Of a stretch of 64,000 nucleotides of DNA, positions 1 to 26,805 are shown piece after piece. Positions within the stretch are counted from its first letter, which is position 1. Each line of letters opens with the position of its first letter. The notes under the pieces are model-generated. The model was not told the origin of the DNA. It saw only the letters and a list, made by a program, of their open reading frames with translations, and did no database searches. Origin of the DNA: Nanobdellota archaeon (GTDB lineage Archaea; Nanobdellota; Nanobdellia; Woesearchaeales; UBA10107). The stretch covers positions 109,878 through 173,877 of the forward strand of contig JBHPFU010000002.1 of the NCBI GenBank assembly GCA_042571125.1, written 5' to 3'. The position numbers and the translations under genes are program-made.

Positions 1-3000
1 GCTATACAATCTATGCAAATGATACTTTAGGAAACCAAGTTAACCAATCAAGCAACTTTACAGTGCAAGATACTACTAAACCAGTAATATCGTTTGTTGC
101 GCCTACTACTTCAGCAGGAGCGCATAATCAAAATGAGATATTAGCGAATGCAACATCAGATAGTGTGGATCTAGATACAATAACAATTAACTTATTCAAT
201 TCCACATCAAACTTAATTAATTCAACAAGCTTAGCAGCATCCAATCTATTAGTCAACTTTAGTAATCTAGCTGAAGGAAGTTATTACCTGAATGCAACAG
301 CTAATGATACTGCAGGAAACCTTAACTACACTGAAACAAGAAATATTATTCTTGACAATACCTATCCAAGTATAACCTTTGAAAATCCAACCCCTTCATC
401 AGGAACGGTACAAAACATAAGTAGTCTTTTAATAAATGTTAGCGCCTCTGACACTAATTTCGCTAACATCACAACATATCTTTACAATGAAACTACGCAG
501 ATAAGTAAAGCCACTGTTAGTAATACTGTGCAATTCAGTAATTTCGTTGGCTTACCAAATGGAATATACTATTTCAATGCAACAGCATATGATGATGCGG
601 GAAACGTCAATTATACTGAAACAAGGAATGTAACAATAAATAGAAGCATTAATGCGCCTCCGTATTGGTCAAATCTAAATGAGATGCCTGGAGATCCGGC
701 AGATTATGTTCCAGATAAAACATATTATTTCAATATAACCTGGAATGACGATGAGGGAGTAGATTCTGTATGGATAGAATTTGATGGAGTAAACTACACA
801 AGCGAAGTTTACAACATATCTAATACTTATGTATTCAACAGAACTGGCCTAAGTGTTGGTGTACACAATTATACTTGGTATGCAAATGATACAAATAAGA
901 ACCTAACCAGCGCAAATGAAACATATACGCTTAATGCCCTGCCTAGTTACAGCTCAAATGGAAGTGTTGTTGATGAACAAGGAACAGTTCAAAATGCTTC
1001 ATATAAAATCTATAATTCAACAGGCCATCTTGTTTACTCAAGCGATATGTACTATACTTTCACATTTGAAGGTACGCAAAAGTATGATTTACTTGTGACA
1101 GCACACTATGATGATTACATTAGACAATATGAATTAAAAGGAATATTCAACAATACAAACAATACAAATCCAATTCAAGCCAGATTTAATAATATAACAA
1201 ACCATCACGTTGTAAATCCAACAACCTTGAATTTTGATGAATTAACAATAGAGCTTAGACCAGCTACAACAAACGGCATATTCTTTAAATGTAGCGGAAC
1301 ATATAATCTAACTACATCTATTTGTAGCGGAACTTGGGAGCCTTGGTTAAATGTTAAGAGTATTGATTATGAAAATTATACATTTACACCGGGAGATCCC
1401 GCATTAAGCGAAGCAAACGGAACATTCTTCGAAGATTGGGAAACAGGTAGCTTTGCAACAAATAACTGGACTAATGACGGCTGCTGGGCTATTGTAAATG
1501 ATGCTGCTAATGCTTATAGTGGAGATTATTATGCTGCATGTACTGTCAGCGGAACATATACTCTTTATGTAAATGTAAGTACAGCAGGATACGAGAATAT
1601 TAACATAAGCTTCTGGTATCAAAGTGATGGTTATTATGTAACAAGCTTTGCTGCGGATTACTGGAATGGAACAACCTGGCGTAACTTGTTCACAGATGCT
1701 CCTGTAGACAACATAGCTACATGGACAAATGTATTCAATACAACAGAATCTGATGCAGATGATAATGCTGATCTAAGATTAAGGTTTGTGCGTAATGGAG
1801 GAAATAACAGAGATATTTGGTTAGAAAATATCTTTGTGACTGGAACTGAGATAGACTACATCTCACCATCAGTCTCAACAATACAACCAACATCAGCAAA
1901 TGAAGATGTTGCTACAAATTACAATGCGACTGTTTCAGATAATGTTGGTGTAACTGCATGTAACTTGTTTATTGACGGAGCATTGAATGGTTCAATGGAT
2001 GTTAGCGGAACATTAGCAAATAGAAGTGTAACAATCACAACACCGGGAAGCTATCAGTTCCTAGCAAATTGTACTGACGCTGCTGGAAACTATAATGATA
2101 CATCGGTTACAAATGTAACAATTAATGATGTTACCGCTCCAACATGGAACGAGACTCCAACAAACAGACTATTAGAATTAGGGGCGCCTTTATATTATGA
2201 TGTGAATGCGAGTGATAATGTTGCTGTAGATGTATATTCAATAAATGATAATACTAACTTTACAATTAATCCAACAAACGGGATAATACAGAATAATACT
2301 GGATTATCGATAGGAACATATTCATTAAACATATCTGTGAATGATACTTCGAATAATGTTTTATCAGAAGTAATTAATGTGACTGTTCAGGATACTACAA
2401 AGCCATCAGTATCTACAATAGAACCGACAAATGTGAATGAGGATGTTTCAACAACATATAATGCTACTGTTTATGATTTGGATGGTGTTACATCATGTAA
2501 CTTGTATATCGATGGAACTCTGAATGGATCAATGAGTATAACTGGCGGTGTGTTGGCAGAAAGAACAGTAACAGTCACAACACCTGGAAGTTATCAGTTC
2601 CTTGCTAATTGTACAGATGCTACAGGCAATTATAATGATACTAGTACAACAACTGTTACAATTAATGATATTACTGCTCCGACTTGGGATGAAACTCCTC
2701 AGAATCAGATTGTTGGTCATGAAACAGACTTTAGCTATGATGTAAATGCATCAGATAATGTTGCGATTGATACTTACTCTGTTGATAATTCCAATTTCAG
2801 CATAAGTGGTGCAGGAGTAATTACAAATACAACACTATTAAGCGTAGGTGTACATTCATTGAATATTTCAGTTAATGATACATCTAACAACAAATTATCA
2901 GAAGTGATTACTGTAACTGTTCAGGATACTACAAAGCCATCAGTGTCTACAATAGAACCTACAAATGTGAATGAAGATGTATCTACAACATACAATGCTA

Positions 3001-6000
3001 CTGTTTATGATTTGGATGGTGTTACAACATGTAACTTGTTTATTGATGGAACTTTGAATGGATCAATGAGTATAACTGGCGGCGTGTTGGCCGAGAGAAC
3101 ATTAACAGTCACAACACCTGGAAGCTATCAGTTCCTAGCAAATTGTACAGATGCTACAGGCAATTATAATGATACTAGTACAACAACTGTGACAATTAAT
3201 GATATTACTGCTCCGACTTGGGATGAGACTCCTCAGAATCAGATTGCTGAGTATGGAACAGACTTTAGCTATGATGTGAATGCATCAGATAATGTTGCGA
3301 TTGATACTTACTCTGTTGATAATTCCAATTTCAGCATAAGTGGTGCAGGAGTAATTACAAATACAACACTATTAAGCGTAGGTGTACATTCATTGAATAT
3401 TTCAGTTAATGATACATCTAACAACAAATTATCAGAAGTGATTACTGTAACTGTTAATGATACAATCGCACCTGTAATAAGTAGTGTAACAACAGGCACA
3501 ATCACAAATGAAACAGGACAAATATTATGGAGCACTAATGAGAATGCAAATTCAACTGTTGATTATGGTTTAACAACTGCGCTAGGATCAAGTACCGGAA
3601 GCGGAACATTAGTAACTGCACATGATTTAACAATACTGAGCCTAACAAATAATACATTATATTATTATAATGTAACAAGCTGTGATGTGTACGGTTATTG
3701 TAGTATAGCTGGACCTTATAACTTTACAACAATTTCAAACATACCAGATACATCTGCTCCGATAATTGCAAATGTAAATCACAGCGGTGTAACAAACGAC
3801 TCTGCAATAATCAACTGGACAACTGATGATACATCCAACAGTACTGTCTACTACGGCGAAACAATTGCATTAGGATCAAGTACAAGCAGCGGAACATTAG
3901 TAACAACCCACAGCATAACATTAACTGGATTGACAAATGTAACATTATACTATTATAATGTAAGCTCATGCAATCAGTATGGAAATTGCAGTACAGATGG
4001 ATATTATAACTTTACAACAGAACAGAGTCCTGATGTACTTTCTCCGTCAGTATCAACAATACAACCAACATCTGCTGACGAAGATACAAGTACAACATAC
4101 AATGCTACTCTTTCGGATGTTGAAGGAGTTACATCATGTAATCTGTTCATAGATGGAACATTAAATGGTTCAATGACAATCTCAGGAGGAGTATTAGCAG
4201 AAAGAACTTTAACATTAACAACGCCTGGAAGTTATCAGTTCCTAGCTAATTGTTCGGATGCTGCTGGAAACTATAATGATACTAGCACAACAACTGTTAC
4301 AATTAATGATATCACAACACCTTCATTAGTTGTTAGTAGCCCAGTAGATGGCAACGGGTATACTGTAAATAATATCTCAATATATTACACTGTCTTAGAT
4401 AATGTTGGAGTAGATTCATGCTGGTACACAAACACAACGGGCCAGATTGTTAACTTAGTTGGATGTGCAAACACTTCCATCAATGTTACAGACGGAGATT
4501 GGAACATTACAGTATATGCTAATGATACAAGCAACAATATTAACAGTTCTCAGATATCCTTCTTAGTAGATACTGCAAATCCAGTAGTCAACTTTGTTTA
4601 TCCAACACCAGGAGATGGAACAGGGGTATCTGCAACAACAATAACAGTTAATGTTACTGCAGCTAATGGTCCTGCAAGCATAGATAGTTGTAAGTTAACA
4701 TTCAATAATACAGATTATTTAATGACAAAAATTGGAACAGGTTCTGCTGTTTCATGTAATTTCACATTAAGCGGATTAAGTGAAGGGTTCTATGTATATA
4801 ATGTGACTGCTAATGATACTCTTAACAACATTGGATACTCAGCTAACAGAAACGTAACAATTGATATTACTACACCAGAAGTAAGCACAATAGAACCAGT
4901 TAATGTTGACGAAGATGTTACAACTAATTACAACGCAACTGTTAGTGATAATTTAGGTATAACCTCCTGTAACTTATTCATAGATGGAACATTAAATGGT
5001 TCAATGACTGTTGCTGGCGGTTTAGCAGAAAGGACATTAAATGTTACAACGCCGGGAAGCTATCAGTTCCTTGCTAATTGTACTGATATTGCTGGCAATT
5101 ATAATGATACTAGCACAACAACTGTAACAATTAATGATATTACTGCTCCAGTAATGAGCAGCATATCTGAAAGTTCAATAACAACAAGTAGCGCGCATAT
5201 AACTTGGACAATAGATGAACTTGCAAATTCAACAGTAGAATACGGACTGACAAGCGGATTAGGAAGCATAGAATCAAGCCCAACATTAACAACAAGCCAC
5301 GATCTTACATTAACTAACCTAACCAATGGTACAGTATATTATTACAATGTAACAAGCTGTGATGCTGATGGTAATTGTGATACTCTTGGATTATATAACT
5401 TTACAACTGCAAATCCAACACCTCCAAGCACAGGCGGCGGAGGATCTCATGAAAGAATATGTAATGAAAACTGGAATTGTACAGAATGGAATGAATGTTC
5501 TGTGAATGGATTAAGAACAAGAGCATGTACTGAGTTAAGCGGATGCGGAACTTATCTATATAGACCAATTATGTTTGAATACTGTGAACCAGAAGAGATT
5601 CCTAGCGGGGAAATAGTTCCAACAGTACCTGAAGAAGAAATTTCTGAGGAAGTTCCAGTTGTGGAAGTTCCAGCACCTAGACCTATTAAGAAAATAATAA
5701 CTTGGTCTCTTTTATTCTTAGTTCTTGCTACACTAATAACTTATGGAGCAATACGCAGACAAGCAATCTATGCAGGAACTGAAGCAGTAATTGAAGAGTT
5801 AAAAGGATTGGGAAGATTGTATGGTGCTGGTCGTAAAAAACGTAAAGAAGAGGAAGTAGTAAAAGTAGTTCAAAGAAGAGATATATTTAAAGAAGGAATA
5901 AAATCACGAGCTCAAAAAACAAAAGAATTTGTAATACACACAGAACAATCTGCAGTAAAGATATTAAGAGATTATTTGAGAGGCATCGAACATGCAGCTT

Positions 6001-7880
6001 ACACAGTAGGATCATGGTGGGGAGCAGCTAAAGTCAAAGAACGTGAATTAGCTAAAATCTTAAAAGCAAAAGCAAGACGTACTGGACGCGTTATTGAGAA
6101 AGATGCAGAAAAAATAATTGAAAAAGAACACGAATTTGCTTCTGATATAAGGAACAAAGTTAAGGGAGAGATAAAAGTAATTATAGGCATCTACAATAAA
6201 GATAAGGCTAAAGCAGTTAAAGCAGCACATGATCTAAAAATTTCCACCAGAAGAAAAGCAAGACACGCAGGAAGAGAGGTTTCTGGATTTGTTGAATCTA
6301 TTAAAGATAAATTCATTACAGAGGAGCATGAACTTGCTACAAAAACAAGAAAAACAATCGGGCACATGGGCTTTGCTCTTGAAAGAGCAGAGGAAAAGAT
6401 CTATGAAAGAGTCGCAGAAAATGTATTGGGCGTAATGCACTCACTAGTTCTTGCTTCCAGGAGAGCAGGACACAAACTTGAAGTTGCAAAACTAAGAGAA
6501 GAAGAATTTGTAAAGAACACAAGACATGAGATAAGCGGTGAAATCAAGCATATCAAAAGCATCTTAAGAAAAGGCGTAACAGAAGCAGAAAATGAATGGG
6601 AGCTTACGAAAAAGAGGGAGCATGAATTTGTTCTAGCTTCAAGAAGATTCATCAAAGGACAGCTAAAGCATGCTGCGTCTGCAATAGAAAAAGGAAAAGA
6701 TTCTGCTAATCAAAGAAGAAAAAAGATCATAGGAGATCTTAAGAATCAATTTATGATAACAGGAGAAGCAATAAGAGATAGAGAACATGATGTTGTCAAA
6801 AGGATCAGAGCTGAAGTAAGGCACGATAAGCATGAATTGCAGAAGAGAAAAGATGCTATAGCAAATAGAGCTCATGAAGTTGCTAAAGGAATCAGATATT
6901 CAGAACATGAACTAGTTAATAATTTAAAAGCTAAAGGAAGAGGAATAAAGCATCAATTCCTAAAAACAGGAGAAGCAATAAGAGAAACAGAGCATGAAAT
7001 TGCTAAGAGAACAAGAGCTGAAATAAGACACGAGAAGCACGAGTTACATAAGAGTAAGGATGCGATATCTAGTAGGGCTCATGAAATCGTTCAAGGAATA
7101 AAAAATAGGAAGCATGAAATTGCTGAAGGAGTTAGAGCTGAAATAAGACATGAGCAACATAAGTTACAAGAAAGAAGGGACGCAGTAAAAGATAGAGCTC
7201 ATGAAGTTGCTGAAGGAATAAGAGATGAACGGCATGAAATTGCTAAGGGAATCAAAGCAGAGATAAGACATGAGAAGCATGAATTAGAGAAGAAAAAGAA
7301 TGCCGTAAAAGATAGAGTTAATGCGGTCATCAAAAGAATAAAAGATAGGAAGCATGAAATTGCTGAAGGAGTTGGAGCTGAAATAGGACATGAGCAACAT
7401 AAGTTACAAGAAAGAAGGGACGCAGTAAAAGATAGAGCTCATGAAATCGTTCAAGGAGTAAAAGATGAACGGCATGAAATTGCTAAAGGTATCAAAGAAG
7501 AGATAAGACATGAGAAGCATGAACTGCAGAAGAGAAAAGATGCTATAGCGGGCAGGGCTCATGAAATCGTTCAAGGAGTAAAATATGAACAACATGAACT
7601 TGCCAAGAGAACAAGAGCTGAAATAAGGCATGAGAAGCATGAATTAGAAAAGAGAAAGAATGCAATACAAGACAATATACAAAATGTCAAGAGCGTAGCT
7701 AAAAAAGACACAGAGCTTGTTAAAGCGTCAGGTGCTGCAGCTAAAGAAAGCGCAAAGTTATTCGGAAGTGTAATATCAACTATTGCTTCAGATATATCCG
7801 GAATATTCACTAAGAAAACAAGAACTAAAAATCAAAAAGAATATCTTTTGAAAAAGTTAAAAGGAGCGTATAAGATATGA
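1..7880 (+). CDS. Giant surface protein, 5'-partial at the window edge (more than 2630 aa). It has a sequon-rich extracellular region with repeated roughly 95-aa modules and FN3-like modules, a Cys-rich stalk, one transmembrane helix near nt 5695-5756, and a roughly 650-aa His/Glu/Lys/Arg-rich repetitive tail.
   Basis: The reading frame is open back to nt 3 and the upstream residues match the internal repeat motif FTVQDTTKP. There are very many NxS/T sequons. The module VSTIEPTNVNEDV..CNLFIDGTLNGSM..PGSYQFLANCTD occurs about 5 times. A hydrophobic segment IITWSLLFLVLATLITYGAI is present. The tail repeats RAHEIVQGVKDERHEIAKGIKEEIRHEKHEL about 16 times. Confidence 0.85.
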   Translation, partial: YTIYANDTLGNQVNQSSNFTVQDTTKPVISFVAPTTSAGAHNQNEILANATSDSVDLDTITINLFNSTSNLINSTSLAASNLLVNFSNLAEGSYYLNATANDTAGNLNYTETRNIILDNTYPSITFENPTPSSGTVQNISSLLINVSASDTNFANITTYLYNETTQISKATVSNTVQFSNFVGLPNGIYYFNATAYDDAGNVNYTETRNVTINRSINAPPYWSNLNEMPGDPADYVPDKTYYFNITWNDDEGVDSVWIEFDGVNYTSEVYNISNTYVFNRTGLSVGVHNYTWYANDTNKNLTSANETYTLNALPSYSSNGSVVDEQGTVQNASYKIYNSTGHLVYSSDMYYTFTFEGTQKYDLLVTAHYDDYIRQYELKGIFNNTNNTNPIQARFNNITNHHVVNPTTLNFDELTIELRPATTNGIFFKCSGTYNLTTSICSGTWEPWLNVKSIDYENYTFTPGDPALSEANGTFFEDWETGSFATNNWTNDGCWAIVNDAANAYSGDYYAACTVSGTYTLYVNVSTAGYENINISFWYQSDGYYVTSFAADYWNGTTWRNLFTDAPVDNIATWTNVFNTTESDADDNADLRLRFVRNGGNNRDIWLENIFVTGTEIDYISPSVSTIQPTSANEDVATNYNATVSDNVGVTACNLFIDGALNGSMDVSGTLANRSVTITTPGSYQFLANCTDAAGNYNDTSVTNVTINDVTAPTWNETPTNRLLELGAPLYYDVNASDNVAVDVYSINDNTNFTINPTNGIIQNNTGLSIGTYSLNISVNDTSNNVLSEVINVTVQDTTKPSVSTIEPTNVNEDVSTTYNATVYDLDGVTSCNLYIDGTLNGSMSITGGVLAERTVTVTTPGSYQFLANCTDATGNYNDTSTTTVTINDITAPTWDETPQNQIVGHETDFSYDVNASDNVAIDTYSVDNSNFSISGAGVITNTTLLSVGVHSLNISVNDTSNNKLSEVITVTVQDTTKPSVSTIEPTNVNEDVSTTYNATVYDLDGVTTCNLFIDGTLNGSMSITGGVLAERTLTVTTPGSYQFLANCTDATGNYNDTSTTTVTINDITAPTWDETPQNQIAEYGTDFSYDVNASDNVAIDTYSVDNSNFSISGAGVITNTTLLSVGVHSLNISVNDTSNNKLSEVITVTVNDTIAPVISSVTTGTITNETGQILWSTNENANSTVDYGLTTALGSSTGSGTLVTAHDLTILSLTNNTLYYYNVTSCDVYGYCSIAGPYNFTTISNIPDTSAPIIANVNHSGVTNDSAIINWTTDDTSNSTVYYGETIALGSSTSSGTLVTTHSITLTGLTNVTLYYYNVSSCNQYGNCSTDGYYNFTTEQSPDVLSPSVSTIQPTSADEDTSTTYNATLSDVEGVTSCNLFIDGTLNGSMTISGGVLAERTLTLTTPGSYQFLANCSDAAGNYNDTSTTTVTINDITTPSLVVSSPVDGNGYTVNNISIYYTVLDNVGVDSCWYTNTTGQIVNLVGCANTSINVTDGDWNITVYANDTSNNINSSQISFLVDTANPVVNFVYPTPGDGTGVSATTITVNVTAANGPASIDSCKLTFNNTDYLMTKIGTGSAVSCNFTLSGLSEGFYVYNVTANDTLNNIGYSANRNVTIDITTPEVSTIEPVNVDEDVTTNYNATVSDNLGITSCNLFIDGTLNGSMTVAGGLAERTLNVTTPGSYQFLANCTDIAGNYNDTSTTTVTINDITAPVMSSISESSITTSSAHITWTIDELANSTVEYGLTSGLGSIESSPTLTTSHDLTLTNLTNGTVYYYNVTSCDADGNCDTLGLYNFTTANPTPPSTGGGGSHERICNENWNCTEWNECSVNGLRTRACTELSGCGTYLYRPIMFEYCEPEEIPSGEIVPTVPEEEISEEVPVVEVPAPRPIKKIITWSLLFLVLATLITYGAIRRQAIYAGTEAVIEELKGLGRLYGAGRKKRKEEEVVKVVQRRDIFKEGIKSRAQKTKEFVIHTEQSAVKILRDYLRGIEHAAYTVGSWWGAAKVKERELAKILKAKARRTGRVIEKDAEKIIEKEHEFASDIRNKVKGEIKVIIGIYNKDKAKAVKAAHDLKISTRRKARHAGREVSGFVESIKDKFITEEHELATKTRKTIGHMGFALERAEEKIYERVAENVLGVMHSLVLASRRAGHKLEVAKLREEEFVKNTRHEISGEIKHIKSILRKGVTEAENEWELTKKREHEFVLASRRFIKGQLKHAASAIEKGKDSANQRRKKIIGDLKNQFMITGEAIRDREHDVVKRIRAEVRHDKHELQKRKDAIANRAHEVAKGIRYSEHELVNNLKAKGRGIKHQFLKTGEAIRETEHEIAKRTRAEIRHEKHELHKSKDAISSRAHEIVQGIKNRKHEIAEGVRAEIRHEQHKLQERRDAVKDRAHEVAEGIRDERHEIAKGIKAEIRHEKHELEKKKNAVKDRVNAVIKRIKDRKHEIAEGVGAEIGHEQHKLQERRDAVKDRAHEIVQGVKDERHEIAKGIKEEIRHEKHELQKRKDAIAGRAHEIVQGVKYEQHELAKRTRAEIRHEKHELEKRKNAIQDNIQNVKSVAKKDTELVKASGAAAKESAKLFGSVISTIASDISGIFTKKTRTKNQKEYLLKKLKGAYKI
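2386..3455. repeat. Two near-identical tandem DNA repeats of about 535 bp inside the giant gene, each encoding a roughly 180-aa repeat unit. More diverged copies start near 1861, 4040 and 4870.
   Basis: Direct comparison of 2386-2920 against 2918-3455 shows long identical runs, for example gttcaggatactacaaagccatcagt...ccgacttgggatga. Confidence 0.8.
6770..7680. repeat. Tandem repeats of about 111 bp (37 aa) encoding the His/Glu-rich tail of the giant protein.
   Basis: An almost identical roughly 95-nt block (aagcatgaaattgctgaaggagtt..gctgaaata..acatgagcaacataagttacaagaaagaagggacgcagtaaaagatagagctcatgaa) occurs at about 7115-7210 and again at about 7355-7450. Related copies occur throughout. 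Confidence 0.75.
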
Positions 7881-7941
7881 TAAAAACGAAAGAATTAAAA
7901 AAGAAAAAGATATTAAACAATCTTAGAGAGGTGTATGTGCT

Positions 7942-8739
7942 ATGGGCAAGACAATAGGCATTATTGCGATAAAAGGTGGTGTTGGAAAAACAACAACGGT
8001 TTCTAATCTGGGAGCGGTTCTAGCGAGTGAATTTAATAAAAAAGTTCTATTAGTTGATGCTAATTTCAGTGCACCGAACCTGGGGCTACACTTAGGCATA
8101 GTTGATCCTGCAAAAACACTTCACGATGTAATTGAAAACAAGGCAACAATACACGAAGCAGTACAGGAACACGATCATGGCTTCCACATCATCCCCTCCT
8201 CATTAGTTCATAAGAAAATTAATCCATTTAAACTAAAAAATAGACTGGCGTCAATCAAAAAAAACTATGATGTTATACTTGTTGACTCCTCTCCAACATT
8301 AAACGAGGAGATTTTAGCGACTATGCTTGCTTCTGATGAGCTTTATGTTGTAACAAGTGCAGACTATCCAACACTTAGCTGTACAATGAGTGCGGTTAAG
8401 CTGGCAAAAGAAAGAAAAACACCAATAAGCGGGCTTATTATCAATAAGACTAGAGGGGAAAAGTTCGAACTAAGCTTAACTGAAATAGAAGAATCAACAG
8501 GGATCCCGGTTTTAGCAGTTATTCCTGATGACATAAAGGTTTTGGAAGCACTATCTGAAACAAAATCTGCTGCTCTTCATGCTCCAAAAAAGGATTTTGC
8601 TATTGAATATAAAAAATTGGCAGGATTTTTAGTGGGGGAAGAGTATAAAGACAAAAGATTAAAGACAAAAGTAAAAGATTTCTTTTTAACAAACCACGAT
8701 GTTCCTAAGCAAAACATAAACAGGATATTAAAAGAATGA
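7942..8739 (+). CDS. MinD/ParA-family P-loop ATPase.
   Basis: Deviant Walker A motif IKGGVGKTTT and a ParA-like sequence layout. The protein is 265 aa. Confidence 0.85.
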   Translation: MGKTIGIIAIKGGVGKTTTVSNLGAVLASEFNKKVLLVDANFSAPNLGLHLGIVDPAKTLHDVIENKATIHEAVQEHDHGFHIIPSSLVHKKINPFKLKNRLASIKKNYDVILVDSSPTLNEEILATMLASDELYVVTSADYPTLSCTMSAVKLAKERKTPISGLIINKTRGEKFELSLTEIEESTGIPVLAVIPDDIKVLEALSETKSAALHAPKKDFAIEYKKLAGFLVGEEYKDKRLKTKVKDFFLTNHDVPKQNINRILKE

Positions 8740-9059
8740 GGGCTCAAGCATCTATTAAGATTGTTAGCGGAATTGTAGTAGTTTTGTTGGTATTTCTTAT
8801 AGTGTTTACACTAAAAGAAGGCCCCAATCTAACAGGCTACGTTAGTTCGGATGTTTCTGAAGAAGTAAAAGCATGTTACCTTTCAACAGAATCTGGGCTG
8901 ATTCCGATGTCTGATCTGGCTGATTGCTGCACCTCATTAAAGAACGCAGTAGGCTGTCAGAAGTACGTTTCTGATGAACTGGCTGATGACCTATATAAGT
9001 GCAAATCAAAGCGTATAATCGTCGCAAATAAGGCTCTAATCGACTTCTGCATGGGATAA
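8736..9059 (+). CDS. Small membrane-anchored Cys-rich protein, translationally coupled to the MinD-like gene.
   Basis: An ATGA start/stop overlap. The N-terminus has the hydrophobic helix IVSGIVVVLLVFLIVF, followed by a domain with 6 Cys. Confidence 0.5.
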   Translation: MRAQASIKIVSGIVVVLLVFLIVFTLKEGPNLTGYVSSDVSEEVKACYLSTESGLIPMSDLADCCTSLKNAVGCQKYVSDELADDLYKCKSKRIIVANKALIDFCMG

Positions 9060-10912: not shown

Positions 10913-10918
10913 CTTTTT

Positions 10919-10992
10919 GGGCCCGTAGCTTAGTCTGGTGGAGCACACGACTGATAATCGTGCGGTCCCGTGTTCGAATCACGGCGGGCCCA
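10919..10992 (+). tRNA. tRNA-Ile (GAU).
   Basis: Acceptor GGGCCCG/CGGGCCC, anticodon stem CACGA/TCGTG with loop CTGATAA, T-loop TTCGAAT. 74 nt. Confidence 0.85.
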
Positions 10993-11000
10993 TTCTCACT

Positions 11001-12575
11001 ATGACTAAACTAAAAATAAAACAAGAATCGCAAGATCCTGTTCTCAATATAGCTCTGGATACTTTAAACAAGAATAAGCAAGCCCTAGTTTTTGTGAATA
11101 CAAAACGTTCTGCTGAAAAGGTTGCAGAAGATATCTCGAATCATTTTAAAAAATTAAAACAGAGGGAAGATACAGAACTTTCTGAACAAATTCTAAGCGC
11201 ATTAGCCAAACCAACAAAACAATGTGAAAGACTATCGAGATGTGTTAAGTATGGTGTTGGGTTTCATCACGCAGGATTGACGCACAAACAGAAAGATATA
11301 ATTGAAGATAGTTTCAAAGCCGGAAAAATAAAGATTATTTCATGTACCCCAACTTTGGCTGCAGGAATGGATATGCCTGCATTCAGAACAGTAATAAGAG
11401 ATCTAAAAAGGTACGGCCAGAGAGGAATGCAGAATATCGGAGTGTTAGAATATCTTCAAATGGCTGGCAGAGCAGGAAGACCAAAATACGATAAAGAAGG
11501 GCAGGCAATTGCGCTTGCAGGATCAGAAGGAGAAAAAGAAGAGATTTGGGAGAAGTATATTGACGGAGAGCCAGAAGATATACAATCTAAATTAGCAGTT
11601 GAACCTGTTTTAAGAACGTATGTTCTAAGTTTAATCGCCACTAAGTTTGTAAGAACAAAAAAAGAGCTTGTTAATTTCTTTAGTAAAACATTCTGGGCCT
11701 ATCAATTTGAAGATATGGATAAATTAGAGATAATAATTGATAAAATGTTAAGATTATTGGAAGAATGGGAATTCATAAAAGGGAAGGGGGATGATTTTAT
11801 TTCTGCATCAGAAGTAAGAGATGAAAAATTAAAAGCTACATTGTTAGGACAAAGAGTTGCAGAATTATATCTTGATCCGCTTGCTGCTCACGATATTGTA
11901 AAAGGACTAAGAAGGGCAGAAAAGACAACATTAGTTCCATTTTCATTCCTACAACTAGTATCCAACACGCTTGAGATGCGTCCTTTGCTAAGAGTTAGGC
12001 AAAAAGAGTATGATGATATTGTAGAAAGGCTTACACAATACGATTCTAATCTCTTAATGTCAGAACCGTCACTTTATGAAACTTTTTATGATGATTTTCT
12101 TGATTCTGTTAAAACAGCTCTGTTCTTTAATGAATGGATTGAAGAAAAAGATGAAGAATTCCTATTAGAACATTACAATGTACGTCCCGGAGAAACAAGA
12201 GGTAAGTTAGAGATAGCAGATTGGTTATTTTATTGCATGGAAGAAATTGCTAAACTGTTAAAATTACAAAAACTGCTTAAGGATGTAAGCAAAACAAGAT
12301 TAAGAATCAAGCACGGGATAAAAGAAGAGTTAGTTCCATTAGTAAAATTAAAAGAGATTGGTCGTGTGAGAGCAAGAAAGTTATTCAACAACGGAATAAA
12401 AGATGTAAAAGGTGTTAAAAATGCAGATACTTCTACTCTCGCTTATTTGTTGGGCAAGAAAATAACAATAAATATCAAAGAACAGGTTGGGCAAAAGATT
12501 AGACCTGAAGAGATTGAGATTAAAAAAGGCAAAAGAAAAGGCCAGATGAGTATTGATAAATACAATAAAGTTTAA
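11001..12575 (+). CDS. Hel308/Ski2-like DNA helicase, C-terminal portion only (RecA domain 2, winged helix, ratchet and helix-hairpin-helix domains). The N-terminal RecA domain 1, with Walker A and the DEAD box, is absent.
   Basis: Motifs IV to VI are present (ALVFVNTKRSAEK, GVGFHHAGL, TPTLAAGMDMPAFRTVI, QMAGRAGRPKYD). The ORF begins immediately after tRNA-Ile. The track start at 10938 lies inside the tRNA, so the first plausible ATG is 11001. Confidence 0.7.
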   Translation: MTKLKIKQESQDPVLNIALDTLNKNKQALVFVNTKRSAEKVAEDISNHFKKLKQREDTELSEQILSALAKPTKQCERLSRCVKYGVGFHHAGLTHKQKDIIEDSFKAGKIKIISCTPTLAAGMDMPAFRTVIRDLKRYGQRGMQNIGVLEYLQMAGRAGRPKYDKEGQAIALAGSEGEKEEIWEKYIDGEPEDIQSKLAVEPVLRTYVLSLIATKFVRTKKELVNFFSKTFWAYQFEDMDKLEIIIDKMLRLLEEWEFIKGKGDDFISASEVRDEKLKATLLGQRVAELYLDPLAAHDIVKGLRRAEKTTLVPFSFLQLVSNTLEMRPLLRVRQKEYDDIVERLTQYDSNLLMSEPSLYETFYDDFLDSVKTALFFNEWIEEKDEEFLLEHYNVRPGETRGKLEIADWLFYCMEEIAKLLKLQKLLKDVSKTRLRIKHGIKEELVPLVKLKEIGRVRARKLFNNGIKDVKGVKNADTSTLAYLLGKKITINIKEQVGQKIRPEEIEIKKGKRKGQMSIDKYNKV

Positions 12576-24987: not shown

Positions 24988-26805
24988 ATGGGGTGGCAGG
25001 ATTCTTTATCTACAGAGACGATTGCAAATATTAGAAGTCTGAATATCTCGTGGATTATTGACAATTTTGTTCCGGGCCATAAGATGGTTCAAACAGAAGG
25101 AGCATATACTGGCCCATGTCCGATTCATAAAGGAAAAAAGACAGAGTTTGCAGCAAGAAATAATTACTTTACTTGTTTTAAATGTGGAGAAAAAGGGGAT
25201 GGCATTGATTTTGTGCAGGCACTAAAAAGCATAGACGGACTTAATGCTGCAAAACTGATAAGCAAAGCTGCAGATATTCCTTTTGAAACAGCAACAAGTG
25301 AACATGACGCATTAACAAGAGAATTAATGTATCAGATACATGAAGATTCTGCAGAGTACTATCGCAAAAATCTTTCTGTAAGTTCAAAAGATAAAAAAGA
25401 TGCATTGGACTATCTTCTTTCAAGAGTTAGTGAACAATCAATAAGAGAATGGGGTCTTGGATTTGCACCAAGAATGGGCTTATCTAGTTTTCTTATAGAA
25501 AAAGGGCACGATGCTGATTTAGTATCTCGATTAGGGCTTAGAGTAAAATCAGAAGATAGAGGAAACTGGTATGATTTCTTCAGAAACAGAATTATGTTTC
25601 CTATTAAAAATGAAAGAGGCAAAGTTGTTGGGTTTGCAGGGAGAGATATTGAAAAAGATCCAAGAATAAAATATATGAACAGCAGAGAGAGCGAAATCTA
25701 TAGAAAATCAGAGTGTCTTTTTGGAATTGACAAGGCAATAAGAGACATACGTATAAAAAAACAAGTAATCGTTATGGAAGGGTATATGGATGTTATAGCA
25801 GCGCATGAAAATGGAATTGAAAACTGCGTGGCTGTTGCCGGAACTGCTCTAAATTATGGATTAATAAGAACATTATCAAGATATGCAAGAGACATAACTC
25901 TTTGTTTTGATCCAGATGCTGCAGGATGGACTGCAACAGAAAGGATTGGTAAGACTGCATTATCAGAAAAGGTAGCAATCAACATTGTGGATCTTGGGCA
26001 TGGTGACCCCGACGAATTTCTAAAAGAATATGGCAAGAAGAAATTCTTATCTGCAATAAAAAACGGTGTGAATCCTATTGAATTTATTTTAGAACGTAAA
26101 GGATTAAAGAAAATAAAAGGGATTGATAACCGATGTTTGGCAGTACGGGATCTTTATCCAGTAATCGATTCTACAACTGATCCTGCACAGAAATCTGCCT
26201 GGCTGGAATACATTGCTAAAGAGCTAAAGATAAATTCTAGGGCGCTTAACAAAAGCTATAACTTGCATGTAAGAGAACTCGCAGGTTATCAGAACGGAAG
26301 ACCTATCGAACAATATTTTCTTGGATTTCTTACATCTAACACAACACATAGAATGCGTGCGAAAGAAAAATTCATACGAGAGAATTTTTCAAGACCGGAA
26401 TATGGCCTGTATTTTGAATTTCTCTGCTTTGATGAAGAAGCAAAAGATGTTGTTTATAATCCTGACCTGCAGATGGACGAGAATTCTTTGTTTACCAAAG
26501 TTCAATTGAGCGACTTGCTTGATAAATTTAAAAGTTATTGTAAAGAAAGAAAGATAATTCTTCGTCAAACTCAGCTGGGAAATCTTGAAGGTATGCTTTT
26601 GAGTTCTACAAACGAAATTTCTGACTTTGTAAGGCAAATGGAGATGCAGGTTCTGGCAGATAAACTGGAATATAAAAAAGGTCTTATAAAAAAACTTGAG
26701 AGAGAAAGTGCAGATCACTCTCTTATTCCTAACCTTGTGGTTGAGTACAATAAATTACATAGTAAATACGAATCACTAAAACATTATATTAATCAGGGTG
26801 TTTAA
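24988..26805 (+). CDS. Bacterial-type DnaG-like primase with an N-terminal CHC2 zinc finger, a TOPRIM domain and an unknown C-terminal domain.
   Basis: Zinc-finger motif CPIHKGKKTEFAARNNYFTCFKCGEKGDGIDFV. TOPRIM Glu in VIVMEGYMDVIAAH and DxD in LCFDPDAAG. TATA TCTATATAAAG about 28 bp upstream, consistent with a leaderless transcript. Confidence 0.8.
   Translation: MGWQDSLSTETIANIRSLNISWIIDNFVPGHKMVQTEGAYTGPCPIHKGKKTEFAARNNYFTCFKCGEKGDGIDFVQALKSIDGLNAAKLISKAADIPFETATSEHDALTRELMYQIHEDSAEYYRKNLSVSSKDKKDALDYLLSRVSEQSIREWGLGFAPRMGLSSFLIEKGHDADLVSRLGLRVKSEDRGNWYDFFRNRIMFPIKNERGKVVGFAGRDIEKDPRIKYMNSRESEIYRKSECLFGIDKAIRDIRIKKQVIVMEGYMDVIAAHENGIENCVAVAGTALNYGLIRTLSRYARDITLCFDPDAAGWTATERIGKTALSEKVAINIVDLGHGDPDEFLKEYGKKKFLSAIKNGVNPIEFILERKGLKKIKGIDNRCLAVRDLYPVIDSTTDPAQKSAWLEYIAKELKINSRALNKSYNLHVRELAGYQNGRPIEQYFLGFLTSNTTHRMRAKEKFIRENFSRPEYGLYFEFLCFDEEAKDVVYNPDLQMDENSLFTKVQLSDLLDKFKSYCKERKIILRQTQLGNLEGMLLSSTNEISDFVRQMEMQVLADKLEYKKGLIKKLERESADHSLIPNLVVEYNKLHSKYESLKHYINQGV

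What the first reader, a model, noticed from the sequence alone, without database searches (positions are those of the whole stretch)
1..8739. Giant glycoprotein-like surface protein with a long His/Glu-rich repetitive tail, followed by a MinD/ParA ATPase
The protein exceeds 2600 aa and is partial at the 5' end. Its extracellular part is saturated with NxS/T sequons and contains at least 5 copies of a roughly 95-aa module plus FN3-like modules. A Cys-rich stalk and a single transmembrane helix follow. Next comes a roughly 650-aa tail built from about 16 copies of a 37-aa unit rich in His, Glu, Arg and Lys (RAHEIVQGVKDERHEIAKGIKEEIRHEKHEL) with a predicted coiled-coil character. A ParA/MinD ATPase gene follows directly, with a Cys-rich membrane protein translationally coupled to it. 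The layout suggests an attachment structure anchored to, or positioned by, a cytoplasmic ParA-type system. The His-rich tail could bind metal or serve as a docking scaffold. In a DPANN-like organism this is a candidate host-attachment apparatus.
Basis: partly seen in the sequence, partly recalled or inferred. Interest (0 to 1): 0.6.

Follow-up and report, generated by a model that had tools for sequence, protein, structure and literature searches.

The report
Giant surface protein coupled to MinD
A giant sugar-coated surface protein of a tiny DPANN archaeon has an internal tail ending in a short peptide conserved just before a MinD positioning ATPase gene, which suggests a first partner for archaeal MinD and a way of placing attachment proteins on the cell.

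Summary
Window 3-7880 encodes the last 2625 aa of a giant surface protein: an ectodomain of Ig/cadherin/FN3-like modules with twice the expected N-glycosylation sequons, a Cys-rich stalk, one TM helix and a 707-aa helical, charged, His-rich tail. An archaeal-type MinD (7942-8739) and a small Cys-rich membrane protein (8736-9059) follow. The repeat is a 40-aa unit with 6 exact-register plus 2 diverged copies, not 16 x 37 aa.

The organism is a Woesearchaeota/Nanoarchaeota (DPANN) archaeon. Ten further loci place a TM surface protein with a charged tail of 87 to about 780 aa upstream of a MinD orthologue, often with a 4-nt stop/start overlap. These tails, and four unrelated soluble proteins at the same position, carry a short basic amphipathic motif ([KR][KDE]x-phi-L-x-x-L-K-x-phi-[YF]K). 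It was confirmed out of sample in 5 of 6 fresh loci.

The window has two copies 65 nt apart; the second lies in a 26-codon mini-ORF. The His-rich repeats and the Cys-rich protein are lineage-specific.

Best reading: the motif docks the tail to membrane-bound MinD. This is inferred, not shown.

The parts
3..7880 (+). Giant surface protein gene, 5'-truncated by the window edge (2625 aa visible, plus stop codon)
   Evidence: The frame is open from nt 3.
3..5432 (+). Predicted extracellular, N-glycosylated ectodomain (aa 1-1810). It holds Big_13-like Ig domains, 5 copies of a 93-aa module, 3 copies of an 86-aa cadherin-like module and 3 FN3-like modules.
   Evidence: 112 sequons against 55.8 +/- 5.9 expected. 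Module coordinates are and Pfam matches. The AF2 didomain has pLDDT 77 and forms two beta-sandwiches. Foldseek gives SraP, cadherins and SiiE as best matches.
2403..2939 (+). Example A+B didomain (aa 801-979), one of three near-identical tandem copies (71-94% identity)
5448..5609 (+). Cys-rich stalk module resembling a thrombospondin type-1 repeat (ICNENWNCTEWNECSVNGLRTRACTELSGCGTY...), aa ~1816-1869
   Evidence: In all 150 listed hits (of 1055 at E <= 0.001) in the exhaustive HMMER scan, the best-scoring stretch starts at query positions 2-20, i.e. at this module. In the fetched hits it is often multi-copy, and in several it sits just before a C-terminal TM anchor.
5688..5756 (+). Single transmembrane helix (aa ~1896-1918)
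   Evidence: It is the only stretch with 19-residue Kyte-Doolittle mean hydropathy above 1.6. Flank charges are -1 (N side) and +5 (C side).
5757..7877 (+). Predicted cytoplasmic tail of 707 aa: 41% K/R/E/D, 5.9% His, no Cys, no Pro, no sequons, predicted all-helical
6759..7682 (+). His-rich tandem repeat with a 40-aa (120-nt) unit: 6 exact-register copies (aa 2321-2560) plus 2 diverged copies (aa 2253-2318). His occupies fixed columns 11, 23, 26 and 40.
   Evidence: TRF period 120 x 5.7 copies. Profile scan, register, His columns and the 3.65-residue periodicity.
7836..7877 (+). Motif copy 1: the giant protein's own C-terminus, KEYLLKKLKGAYKI*
   Evidence: Its leave-one-out rank is 47 of 29,917 ORFs.
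7877..7957 (+). 26-codon mini-ORF (MIKTKELKKKKILNNLREVYVLWARQ*). Its ATG overlaps the giant gene's stop (ATGA) and it runs 16 nt into MinD. It carries motif copy 2 at 7901-7936.
   Evidence: Leave-one-out rank 1 of 29,917. The 65-nt offset identity is 42/77 against a background of 21 +/- 4. Copy 2 is closest to the C-terminus of the L001 orthologue.
7942..8739 (+). Archaeal-type MinD ATPase (265 aa), with a deviant Walker A (KGGVGKT, K11) and a C-terminal amphipathic basic helix (RLKTKVKDFF)
   Evidence: Pfam. The best PDB matches are Pyrococcus and Archaeoglobus MinD, E 1e-25 to 3e-29. NCBIfam minD_arch scores 159 bits. Invariant residues are and amphipathicity.
8736..9059 (+). Small Cys-rich membrane protein (107 aa, N-terminal TM helix, 6 Cys). 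Its start overlaps the MinD stop (ATGA). It is conserved only in the closest relative.

Best explanation
The locus is an operon-like unit in a Woesearchaeota-type DPANN archaeon. It links a very long, N-glycosylated, adhesin-like surface protein to a membrane-associated archaeal MinD ATPase.

The surface protein has N-out/C-in topology. Outside the cell it carries about 18 or more tandem Ig/cadherin/FN3-like beta-sandwiches and a Cys-rich stalk. One TM helix follows, and inside the cell there is a long, charged, helical tail.

The tail ends in a short basic amphipathic peptide, consensus [KR][KDE]x(I/L/M/V)(L/I)xx(L/M)(K/R)x(V/A)(Y/F)K. I propose that this peptide is the contact site for the MinD dimer. 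The analogy is to the short peptides by which MinE, ParB and McdB engage ParA/MinD-family ATPases.

MinD would sit on the membrane through its own C-terminal amphipathic helix. It would then distribute, cluster or partition the surface protein, for example towards a host-contact site or between daughter cells. Alternatively, the tail may recruit and regulate MinD.

The long helical tail acts as a spacer or scaffold of freely variable length. In this genome it was expanded by a lineage-specific 40-aa His-rich repeat.

What is shown: the anatomy, the predicted topology, the MinD family assignment, the conserved gene coupling and the conserved motif. What is inferred: a physical interaction, ATPase stimulation and a positioning outcome.
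For: 1.

2. MinD identity:
- Its best solved relatives are archaeal MinDs (1G3Q, 1ION, 1HYQ).
- NCBIfam minD_arch scores above minD_bact.
- The deviant Walker A lysine, D39 and D115 are invariant.
- The two most amphipathic 11-mers of the protein lie in its conserved C-terminal extension.

3. Coupling. Ten further loci (L001, L003, L008, L009, L014, L018, L088, L089, L091, L094) place a TM-anchored surface protein upstream of a MinD orthologue (58-77% identity). The proteins are up to 5086 aa long, with charged tails of 87 to about 780 aa. The stop overlaps the MinD start in L001, L003, L008, L088, L089 and L091, and abuts it in L018.

4. Motif specificity. The motif ends 2-5 nt before the MinD ATG in most carriers. 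In leave-one-out tests the core instances rank 1-17 of 29,917 six-frame ORFs.

5. Out-of-sample test. Six fresh loci played no part in defining the motif. In four of them (L088 17.0, L089 18.2, L093 14.5, L094 11.2 bits) the best profile hit in the locus is the C-terminal region of the co-directional upstream gene. Other ORFs score 5.1 or less in the first set and 7.2 or less in the second. A fifth locus (L091) has two weaker tandem copies.

6. The motif is portable. It also ends unrelated soluble or small proteins at the same position (L004, L022, L050, L093). It also appears, by eye only, as five internal copies in L011 and as a second, N-terminal copy in L050; these were not scored with the profile. 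L091 and the window each have two copies.

7. The motif is not merely MinD's ribosome-binding site:
- In L088 it lies 38 aa before the stop, while the terminal NEVFK carries the GAGGTG.
- In L009, L014, L094 and window copy 1 it lies 65-1631 nt from the MinD start.
- Leu and Ile codons differ synonymously between loci.
- GC-rich L004 has no TATA-like sequence there.

8. Archaeal MinDs have no known MinC or MinE. In Haloferax they position motility and chemotaxis machinery rather than the divisome (PMC13228585). A cargo-positioning role is therefore plausible.
Against: - There is no direct evidence of binding. The co-folding test could not be run.
- The motif is short and K/L-rich in an AT-rich genome. 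Its last residues (K-E/G/K-V) are encoded by the Shine-Dalgarno-like GAGGTG/GGAG for MinD, so part of its conservation and its fixed position have a DNA-level cause.
- About a third of the hand-picked instances fail leave-one-out (L014, L048, L052, L059, L060, L074; ranks 250-4400).
- Six of 18 close MinD loci show no motif-bearing upstream gene (L002, L010, L012, L044, L071, L083).
- L019, L021 and L092 have surface proteins just upstream of MinD with short tails and no motif. Simple inherited synteny therefore explains part of the pattern.
- In the window itself the better motif copy is out of frame with the giant gene, in a mini-ORF. The giant's own copy is weaker, at rank 47.
- 'Adhesin' and 'host attachment' rest on fold resemblance only.
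Confidence: 0.55

Rival explanations
1. The gene order is inherited synteny with no protein-protein link. The giant surface protein and MinD are neighbours by descent within one Woesearchaeal clade. The shared C-terminal 'motif' is conserved mainly because the 3' end of the upstream gene contains MinD's ribosome-binding site, and perhaps its promoter, and is needed for translational coupling.
For: - The K-[EGK]-V codons spell GAGGTG, AAGGTG or GGAGTG at SD distance from the MinD ATG, and the motif position is fixed relative to the ATG.
- In L001 the ILNK codons (ATTTTAAATAAA) look like a TATA box.
- L019, L021 and L092 keep a surface protein upstream of MinD without the motif.
- In L014 a junction duplication after a gene insertion kept the segment next to MinD, as expected if the DNA is needed for MinD expression.
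- A third of the seed instances are weak in leave-one-out.
Against: - The motif is kept far from the MinD start in L088 (38 aa before the stop), L009 (687 nt), L094 (a 205-aa gene intervenes), L014 (1631 nt) and window copy 1 (65 nt).
- The hydrophobic positions use synonymous and non-identical codons (TTA, CTT, CTG, CTA, CTC; ATA, ATT, ATG). GC-rich L004 has no TATA-like sequence.
- The motif occurs in non-homologous proteins. Internal copies are also visible by eye in L011 and at the N-terminus of L050, though these were not scored with the profile.
- Stop/start overlaps persist while the rest of the upstream proteins diverged beyond alignment.
Confidence: 0.22
2. The giant protein is the main cell-envelope (S-layer-type) glycoprotein rather than a host adhesin. 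MinD would then organise envelope insertion or growth zones rather than an attachment organelle.
For: - A large, heavily N-glycosylated protein with a stalk and a C-terminal membrane anchor is the classic archaeal S-layer layout (general knowledge).
- Sequon enrichment.
- The stalk-plus-TM layout is widespread in surface proteins of uncultured archaea.
Against: - The ectodomains of the MinD-coupled proteins are not conserved between relatives. Best matches to the N-terminal 620 aa are 28-53% identical over part of its length, and lengths range from 1387 to 5086 aa. That is more typical of fast-evolving adhesins than of a lattice-forming core protein.
- The fold matches are extender-type adhesins and cadherins.
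- There is no PGF-CTERM-type sorting signal, because a 707-aa tail follows the TM helix.
Confidence: 0.15
3. The His-rich tail is a dedicated metal-binding, metal-storage or pH-sensing domain, and that is the main function of the cytoplasmic part.
For: The tail is 5.9% His. His lies in four fixed columns of the 40-aa repeat, including an i/i+3 pair (HEKH), on an amphipathic helix.
Against: - The repeat is absent from all nine related tails examined (His 0-2.3%). It has no relatives in the exhaustive scan.
- There are no Cys residues and no His clusters (HHH or HxH runs).
- L089 evolved a different, His-poor repeat of about 48 aa in the same position. That points to length or helicity, not His chemistry, as the selected property.
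Confidence: 0.08

Closest known systems
Archaeal MinD (TIGR01969 minD_arch; Pyrococcus furiosus 1G3Q/1G3R, P. horikoshii 1ION, Archaeoglobus fulgidus 1HYQ; Haloferax volcanii MinD2/MinD4)
   Same: It is a deviant Walker A P-loop ATPase of the MinD/ParA family, and archaeal MinDs are its best sequence matches. No MinC or MinE is encoded nearby. Haloferax MinD2/MinD4 position membrane-associated machinery (archaella, chemosensory arrays) rather than the divisome (PMC13228585).
   Different: It scores below the curated minD_arch cut-off (159 against 201.75 bits), so it is a divergent DPANN clade. It is translationally coupled to a partner gene carrying a conserved terminal peptide. I found no description of such a partner for archaeal MinDs.
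ParA/MinD cargo-positioning systems that use a short partner peptide (MinD-MinE, ParA-ParB N-terminus, McdA-McdB, PomZ-PomXY)
   Same: The partner is encoded next to the ATPase. The partner carries a short basic amphipathic peptide at a protein terminus. The partners' other domains are diverse. The ATPase has a surface-binding element, here a putative membrane-targeting helix.
   Different: The peptide is C-terminal and unrelated in sequence. The main carrier is the cytoplasmic tail of a giant transmembrane surface protein, so the proposed cargo is an integral membrane adhesin rather than a plasmid, a carboxysome or FtsZ. ATPase stimulation is untested.
Giant tandem-Ig/cadherin-like adhesins (S. 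aureus SraP, Salmonella SiiE, RTX adhesins) and giant DPANN surface proteins (e.g. nanohaloarchaeal SPEARE; recalled from memory and not checked in any paper read here; PMC10266531, listed but not opened, uses 'giant' 20 times)
   Same: Both are very long arrays of tandem beta-sandwich extender modules. The Foldseek top hits are the SraP cadherin-like modules, SiiE and cadherins. Both are predicted extracellular, and the lineage here is a putative symbiont.
   Different: The anchoring differs: a C-terminal TM helix plus a 707-aa cytoplasmic tail, instead of LPXTG or T1SS anchoring. No protease or nuclease domains of the SPEARE type were detected in the visible 2625 aa. The link to a MinD ATPase is not described for these proteins.
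Thrombospondin type-1-like Cys-rich module of surface proteins from uncultured archaea and bacteria
   Same: The stalk motif CxExWxCxxWxxCxxxGxxxRxCxxxxxCG matches more than 1000 proteins, in which it is often repeated.
   Different: It occurs here as a single copy between the ectodomain and the TM helix. No Pfam model matched it. The TSP1 resemblance is by pattern only and was not tested structurally.
11/3 (hendecad) amphipathic helical repeats (apolipoprotein, alpha-synuclein and LEA types; right-handed coiled coils such as tetrabrachion)
   Same: The hydrophobic periodicity is a sharp 3.65 residues, and the repeat length of 40 aa equals 11 helical turns. The region is predicted all-helical.
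   Different: There is no sequence similarity. His sits in fixed columns. The location is cytoplasmic. The oligomeric state and any membrane binding are unknown.

Membership tests
MinD/ParA deviant Walker A ATPases | Deviant Walker A motif KGGxGK[ST] with the signature lysine | tested here: met
   IAIKGGVGKTT. K11, G12, G13, G15, K16 and T17 are invariant in 35 homologues.
MinD/ParA deviant Walker A ATPases | Significant match to family profiles | tested here: met
   Pfam AAA_31 3e-24, CbiA 2e-19, ParA 5e-11.
Archaeal MinD subfamily (TIGR01969) | Score at or above the curated NCBIfam cut-off (201.75 bits) | tested here: not met
   159.4 bits. It is the best family, ahead of minD_bact at 90.5 bits. 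The best solved relatives are archaeal MinDs. I therefore treat it as a divergent relative, not a curated member.
MinD (functional definition) | C-terminal amphipathic membrane-targeting helix | tested here: inconclusive
   The two most amphipathic 11-mers (muH 0.63 and 0.67) lie in the C-terminal extension. The pattern R-phi-x-x-+-phi-+-x-phi-F is conserved across homologues. Membrane binding was not tested.
MinD (functional definition) | MinC and MinE partners, and a role in division-site placement | tested here: not met
   Pfam finds no MinC- or MinE-family match in the two genes flanking MinD (giant protein, Cys-rich protein) or the next three ORFs downstream. Archaea in general lack them (PMC13228585). 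The role in division was not tested.
ParA/MinD partner-peptide systems (MinE, ParB, McdB type) | Partner gene adjacent to and co-oriented with the ATPase gene | tested here: met
   Stop/start overlap or a short gap in the window, L001, L003, L004, L008, L018, L050, L088, L089 and L091.
ParA/MinD partner-peptide systems (MinE, ParB, McdB type) | Short conserved basic peptide at a partner terminus | tested here: met
   Net charge is +2 to +4 and muH 0.40-0.56. Leave-one-out ranks are 1-47 for the core instances. It is the top hit out of sample in L088, L089, L093 and L094.
ParA/MinD partner-peptide systems (MinE, ParB, McdB type) | The peptide binds the ATPase dimer and stimulates ATP hydrolysis | not testable with these tools
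No multimer predictor and no biochemistry were available.
Archaeal surface / S-layer-type glycoprotein | Enrichment of N-glycosylation sequons in the extracellular part | tested here: met
   112 against 55.8 +/- 5.9, z = 9.5.
Archaeal surface / S-layer-type glycoprotein | N-terminal signal peptide | not testable with these tools
   The 5' end lies outside the window and the parent protein could not be retrieved. The analogous proteins in L009, L018, L088 and L094 have an N-terminal hydrophobic segment.
Archaeal surface / S-layer-type glycoprotein | C-terminal anchor of PGF-CTERM/archaeosortase type, or a TM helix with a short tail | tested here: not met
   A TM helix is present, but a 707-aa tail follows it and no PGF motif is visible in the translation.
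Canonical heptad coiled coil | Hydrophobic periodicity of 3.5 residues | tested here: not met
   The dominant period is 3.65, and the power at about 7 is weak.
His-rich metal-binding proteins | His clusters or conserved metal-ligand motifs, conserved in orthologues | tested here: not met
   Isolated His in columns 11, 23, 26 and 40. No Cys. The repeat is absent from the related tails.
SPEARE-type giant DPANN proteins | Protease and restriction-endonuclease domains alongside adhesion domains | tested here: not met
   Pfam finds only Ig, cadherin and FN3-like modules in the visible 2625 aa. The N-terminus was not seen.

The most novel reading that the evidence does not exclude
The C-terminal peptide is a portable 'MinD box', the so-far missing partner motif for an archaeal MinD.

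It would hook different cargos to a membrane-bound MinD. Those cargos include the cytoplasmic tails of giant adhesin-like surface proteins, DUF5752-type small proteins and other soluble proteins. In Woesearchaeota this would form a membrane-surface positioning system for host-attachment proteins.

The motif-only mini-ORFs would act as free, MinE-like regulators or competitors. Examples are window 7877-7957 and the duplicated junction in L014.
Probability: 0.3. Interest if true: 0.8.

Novelty: new variant of a known kind. Interest (0 to 1): 0.62.

Why it matters
Archaeal MinD homologues are widespread, yet they lack MinC and MinE. Their partners and cargos are largely unknown outside Haloferax (PMC13228585).

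This locus and its relatives provide a concrete, testable candidate partner. It is a 12-14-residue peptide encoded immediately before the MinD gene. It sits mostly on the cytoplasmic tails of giant surface proteins in DPANN archaea.

If the interaction is real, it would be a first candidate case of a ParA/MinD-type ATPase coupled to a transmembrane adhesin. I found no description of one. It would also give a molecular handle on how ultra-small symbiotic archaea organise their attachment surface.

The peptide and MinD are small enough for immediate in-vitro testing.

Tried and rejected
1. Exact look-ups of the window's MinD and of its identical copy P0001 found no contig. The 5' end of the giant gene and the source record were therefore not recovered.

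2. A word-index homology search with the stalk, TM helix and tail returned nothing, because low-complexity candidates swamped it. The exhaustive HMMER scan then showed that every listed hit's best match is the stalk and none is in the tail.

3. The genome-contig scan with the single MinD protein gave only two relevant loci. The metagenome scan with an alignment was far more productive.

No co-folding test was possible.

5. Apparent motif hits in L058, L078 and L080 are C-termini of aminoacyl-tRNA synthetases and were discarded. The GatB C-terminus 'KIIEILNKLK*' in the window is likewise coincidental.

6. The TATA-box explanation of the ILNK codons fits L001 but not L003, L004 or L018.

7. A frameshift joining the giant ORF to motif copy 2 was considered. 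It would have to occur within 7874-7877. That stretch has no slippery site or homopolymer, and the giant frame has two stops in a row. I judge it unlikely but not excluded.

8. A heptad coiled coil was rejected in favour of a 3.65-residue periodicity.

9. The small Cys-rich protein is not part of a conserved system. It is present only in L001.

10. The N-terminal 620 aa did not retrieve the parent protein, and no listed hit exceeds about 1,085 aa.

11. The sigma-70 promoter scanner was not used, because it does not apply to archaea.

Full report

Yes, in most respects. The + strand is open from window nt 3 to the stop codon at 7878-7880. It encodes 2625 aa and has no start codon within the window.

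The protein has 113 NxS/T sequons, none of them C-terminal to the single hydrophobic helix. In aa 1-1810, 112 were observed against 55.8 +/- 5.9 in 2000 composition-preserving shuffles (maximum 78, z = 9.5). The tail has none.

Profile scans of the protein against itself found these modules:
- Five copies of a 93-aa module (aa 622-713, 801-893, 979-1071, 1348-1440, 1625-1716).
- Three copies of an 86-aa cadherin-like module.
- Three FN3-like modules (Pfam Pur_ac_phosph_N).
- Several Big_13-like Ig domains.

An A+B didomain was modelled with the window's own repeat copies as its alignment. It folds as two beta-sandwiches (pLDDT 77). Its best structural matches are the cadherin-like modules of the staphylococcal adhesin SraP, cadherin EC repeats, the giant adhesin SiiE and Ig pairs of cell-adhesion molecules.

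A Gly linker and a Cys-rich module follow (aa ~1816-1869), then an acidic, Pro-rich linker. One TM helix lies at aa ~1896-1918, and a 707-aa tail follows it.

MinD (7942-8739) and a 107-aa Cys-rich membrane protein (8736-9059, ATGA overlap) come next.

**2.

The tail repeat has a 40-aa (120-nt) unit, not 37 aa. It has six exact-register copies (aa 2321-2560) and two diverged copies (aa 2253-2318). Only weak remnants lie further upstream. The repeat therefore covers about 310 of the 707 tail residues.

The tail is predicted almost entirely helical, but at low confidence (mean pLDDT 57). Its hydrophobic periodicity is a sharp 3.65 residues, which is 40/11 and so hendecad-like. It is not the 3.5 of a heptad coiled coil.

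His occupies four fixed columns of the unit: 11, 23, 26 and 40.

**3. Organism and context**

The neighbouring genes are archaeal housekeeping genes. They include ATP-dependent DNA ligase, an archaeal helicase with domain 4, ADP-forming acetyl-CoA synthetase, POR, GatD/GatE, CDC48, RtcB and six tRNAs.

An identical MinD is annotated 'Nanoarchaeota archaeon' on a 198-kb contig. Named relatives at about 60-77% identity are mostly annotated Woesearchaeota.

Gene order downstream (helicase, methyltransferase, ligase) is shared with the closest relative, L001. This is core chromosome, not an island.

**4. The ATPase**

It has the deviant Walker A motif with the signature lysine (KGGVGKT). D39 and D115 are invariant.

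Its best solved relatives are the archaeal MinDs of Pyrococcus and Archaeoglobus (E 3e-29 to 2e-25). Bacterial MinD, FleN and Soj are far weaker (about 1e-13).

NCBIfam ranks minD_arch first (159 bits) but below the curated cut-off of 201.75. minD_bact scores 90 bits. I therefore treat it as a divergent DPANN branch of archaeal MinD.

Its C-terminal extension contains the two most amphipathic 11-mers of the protein. One of them (RLKTKVKDFF) is conserved across the family as R-phi-x-x-+-phi-+-x-phi-F. From memory, this resembles bacterial MinD membrane-targeting helices. Membrane binding is inferred.

**5. Is the adjacency conserved?**

I sampled 80 metagenomic loci with a MinD alignment. I added two genome loci and ten look-ups of individual homologues.

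Ten further loci place a TM-anchored surface protein upstream of the MinD gene, with a charged cytoplasmic tail. In these loci MinD is 58-77% identical to the window's:

| Locus | Surface protein | Tail and junction |
|---|---|---|
| L001 | partial; same FN3 modules and stalk | 177-aa tail; stop overlaps MinD start |
| L003 | >=1518 aa | 721-aa tail; stop overlaps MinD start |
| L008 | partial | 114-aa tail; stop overlaps MinD start |
| L009 | 1558 aa; two stalk modules | 87-aa tail; a 206-aa gene intervenes |
| L014 | >=688 aa | 395-aa tail; a 469-aa gene is inserted before MinD |
| L018 | 1472 aa | 123-aa tail; stop codon ends on the first base of the MinD ATG |
| L088 | 2216 aa | 207-aa tail; 4-nt overlap |
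| L089 | 5086 aa | about 780-aa tail; 4-nt overlap |
| L091 | 4474 aa | 605-aa tail; 4-nt overlap |
| L094 | 1387 aa | short tail; a 205-aa gene intervenes |

Apart from L001, their ectodomains are not alignable with the window's beyond generic Ig-like modules.

**6. The conserved C-terminal peptide**

All of these tails carry a short basic amphipathic motif at or near the C-terminus:

| Source | Sequence |
|---|---|
| Window copy 1 | KEYLLKKLKGAYKI* |
| L001 | KRKILNKLKEVYNI* |
| L003 | KKHMLNKLKEVYK* |
| L008 | KKDILNDLKKVYKIE* |
| L018 | KQDMLAQLKGVYE* |
| L009 | GILNDLKDAYKIER* |
| L089 | KDDMLKQLKEVYKK* |
| L094 | NKIINKLKKAYKL* |
| L088 | KEDVLNQLKDAYKL, 38 aa before the stop |
| L091 | two copies |

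The same motif ends unrelated soluble proteins at the same position. These are L004 (320 aa, carrying an NDFxxWI motif like that of the DUF5752-matching small protein of L052, though Pfam itself found nothing in L004), L093 (194 aa), L050 (82 aa, with what looks by eye like a second, N-terminal copy) and L022. L011 appears by eye to carry five internal copies. These L011 and L050 N-terminal copies were not scored with the profile.

Statistics:
- A regex hit occurs within 210 nt upstream of MinD in 13 of 82 loci. The six-frame background is 0.006 per locus, but the regex was derived from these same data.
- In leave-one-out profile tests, window copy 2, L008 and L022 rank 1st of 29,917 six-frame ORFs. 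L003 ranks 3rd, L001 4th, L004 17th, window copy 1 47th and L050 88th.
- L018 ranks 385th. L014, L048, L052, L059, L060 and L074 rank 250-4400. I do not count these as individually supported.
- The fair test is out of sample. Six fresh loci played no part in defining the motif. In four of them the best profile hit in the whole locus is the C-terminal region of the co-directional upstream gene. The scores are L089 18.2 and L088 17.0 (scored on their C-terminal 80 aa; 12.4 and 11.4 in the whole-locus scan), L093 14.5 and L094 11.2. Other ORFs score 5.1 or less in the first set and 7.2 or less in the second.
- L091 has two weaker tandem copies (7.3 and 4.5).
- L092 is ambiguous. Its immediate neighbour is a stalk-plus-TM protein with no motif. 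A 4578-aa giant two genes upstream ends in a motif-like DKKQAMQKLKDIY.

**7. Protein-level or DNA-level conservation?**

Part of the signal is at the DNA level. The K-[E/G/K]-V codons spell GAGGTG, AAGGTG or GGAGTG at Shine-Dalgarno distance from the MinD ATG. That also explains the fixed position.

The rest is not explained by DNA-level constraints:
- The hydrophobic positions use different Leu, Ile and Met codons in different loci.
- GC-rich L004 has no TATA-like sequence.
- The motif is retained far from MinD's start in L088, L009, L094, L014 and window copy 1.
- It occurs in multiple copies within single proteins.

I conclude that a peptide is under selection and that its C-terminal end doubles as MinD's ribosome-binding site.

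**8. A peculiarity of this window**

The two motif copies lie exactly 65 nt apart. Copy 1 (7836-7877) is the giant protein's C-terminus.

Copy 2 (7901-7936, KKKILNNLREVY) lies in the supposed intergenic gap, in another frame. It sits inside a 26-codon ORF (7877-7957, MIKTKELKKKKILNNLREVYVLWARQ*). That ORF's ATG overlaps the giant gene's stop (ATGA), and it runs 16 nt into MinD.

Ungapped identity at offset 65 is 42/77. The window-wide background is 21 +/- 4 (maximum 34), and neighbouring offsets give 19-36. The mini-ORF starts MIKT, like MinD's MGKT.

This fits an old 65-nt tandem duplication of the whole junction: motif, SD, ATG and the first MinD codons. The evidence is only moderate in this A-rich DNA.

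Copy 2 is the better match to the family and to L001. Whether the mini-ORF is translated, or whether an assembly indel hides a longer two-motif C-terminus, cannot be decided here. L014 shows a similar junction duplication after a gene insertion.

**9. The tail and the small downstream protein**

The His-rich repeat is lineage-specific. His is 5.9% here against 0-2.3% in nine related tails. In the exhaustive scan of 1.8 billion representatives, every listed hit matched best through the Cys-rich stalk.

L089 has a different repeat of about 48 aa in the same place. Tail length ranges from 87 to about 780 aa. The conserved properties are charge, helicity and the terminal motif. This argues for a spacer or scaffold role and against a conserved metal function.

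The Cys-rich 107-aa protein is found only in L001.

**10. Proposed mechanism**

Shown:
- A type-I-like giant glycoprotein with an adhesin-type ectodomain and a cytoplasmic tail.
- An archaeal-type MinD with a putative membrane-targeting helix.
- Conserved translational coupling.
- A conserved terminal peptide.

Inferred by analogy with MinE, ParB and McdB peptides (general knowledge of the ParA/MinD family):
- The peptide binds the ATP-bound, membrane-associated MinD dimer.
- MinD thereby distributes, clusters or partitions the surface protein, or the tail recruits and regulates MinD.

Archaeal MinDs lack MinC and MinE. In Haloferax they position archaella and chemosensory arrays rather than the divisome (PMC13228585). 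A cargo-positioning role is therefore in character.

Host attachment is plausible for a DPANN organism but is untested.

**11. Novelty**

I found no description of a partner motif for archaeal MinD, of DUF5752, or of Woesearchaeal MinD operons. The library searched is incomplete.

The parts are of known kinds: a ParA/MinD ATPase, a partner peptide and a giant adhesin-like protein. Their combination appears new, in particular a transmembrane adhesin tail as the main carrier of the peptide. I classify it as a new variant of a known kind.

**12. Caveats**

- There is no interaction evidence.
- The motif is short and K/L-rich in an AT-rich genome.
- Six of 18 close MinD loci lack a motif-bearing upstream gene.
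- L019, L021 and L092 have surface proteins upstream of MinD without the motif.
- The 5' end of the gene and the source record could not be retrieved.

Noticed in passing
window 7877-7957: A 26-codon mini-ORF lies in the 'intergenic' gap. Its ATG overlaps the giant gene's stop and its end overlaps the MinD start. It encodes little more than the conserved motif. It probably arose by a 65-nt tandem duplication of the gene junction.
   Followed up: yes
window 24988-29898: This cluster looks foreign for an archaeon. It holds a bacterial-type DnaG primase (CHC2 zinc ribbon, DNAG_N and Toprim; 605 aa), a 684-aa protein with an RNase_H_2 domain and an M78 (IrrE-like) peptidase. It may be an integrated mobile element or provirus.
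   Followed up: no
window 34260-36095: A 611-aa protein combines an N-terminal PIN domain with a T2SSE-type secretion/pilus ATPase domain. This is an unusual fusion.
   Followed up: no
window 51947-53368: The GatB/GatE homologue ends in 'KIIEILNKLK*', which resembles the first half of the MinD-coupled motif. I judge it coincidental: 0.7 bits, and it is a housekeeping enzyme.
   Followed up: partly
window 10918-10993 and 10938-12575: The mechanical ORF call for the Hel308-like helicase (GTG at 10938) overlaps tRNA-Ile. The true start must lie further downstream.
   Followed up: no
L052 605-925 and L060 9703-10005 (upstream of MinD), with paralogues immediately downstream: In these more distant loci MinD is flanked on both sides by small (~100-aa) proteins with an NDFxxWI motif. 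The downstream copy overlaps MinD's stop by 4 nt in both loci; the upstream genes overlap MinD's start by 8 nt (L052) and 14 nt (L060). Pfam matched DUF5752 (PF19027) for the L052 upstream protein, the only one of these tested. The upstream copy ends in a weak version of the motif.
   Followed up: partly
L014 2113-3519: A 469-aa gene is inserted between the motif-bearing surface protein and MinD. The last ~30 codons of the surface-protein gene are duplicated on its far side, which leaves a motif-only mini-ORF before MinD.
   Followed up: partly
L009 9343-9960 and L094 7369-7986: An apparently related ~205-aa protein with an N-terminal TM helix lies between the motif-bearing surface protein and MinD in two independent loci. 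Both share a '...GITGY.S...' stretch, a resemblance judged by eye. It may be a further component of the system in that sub-lineage.
   Followed up: no
L089, last ~780 aa of the 5086-aa protein (ends at locus nt 8004): The cytoplasmic tail is built from its own tandem repeat of about 48 aa (...KKEAYGLLASIKEYV...KKKLL.RE...). It is unrelated to the window's His-rich 40-aa unit. This looks like an independent expansion of a repetitive helical tail.
   Followed up: partly
L011 243-1715: A 490-aa soluble K/E-rich protein lies 136 nt upstream of MinD. By eye it carries five internal copies of the motif (e.g. KKDTVLTSLQREF, PKDSVLSSLQNDI, QKGDILNGLKGAF; not scored with the profile). It could be a multivalent MinD-binding scaffold.
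   Followed up: partly
proteins P0121-P0160 (hits): The Cys-rich stalk module (CxExWxCxxWSxCxxGxQxRxCxDxNxCGT) is a very widespread repeat in surface proteins of uncultured archaea and bacteria, with up to about 10 copies per protein. No Pfam model matched it in the window protein.
   Followed up: partly
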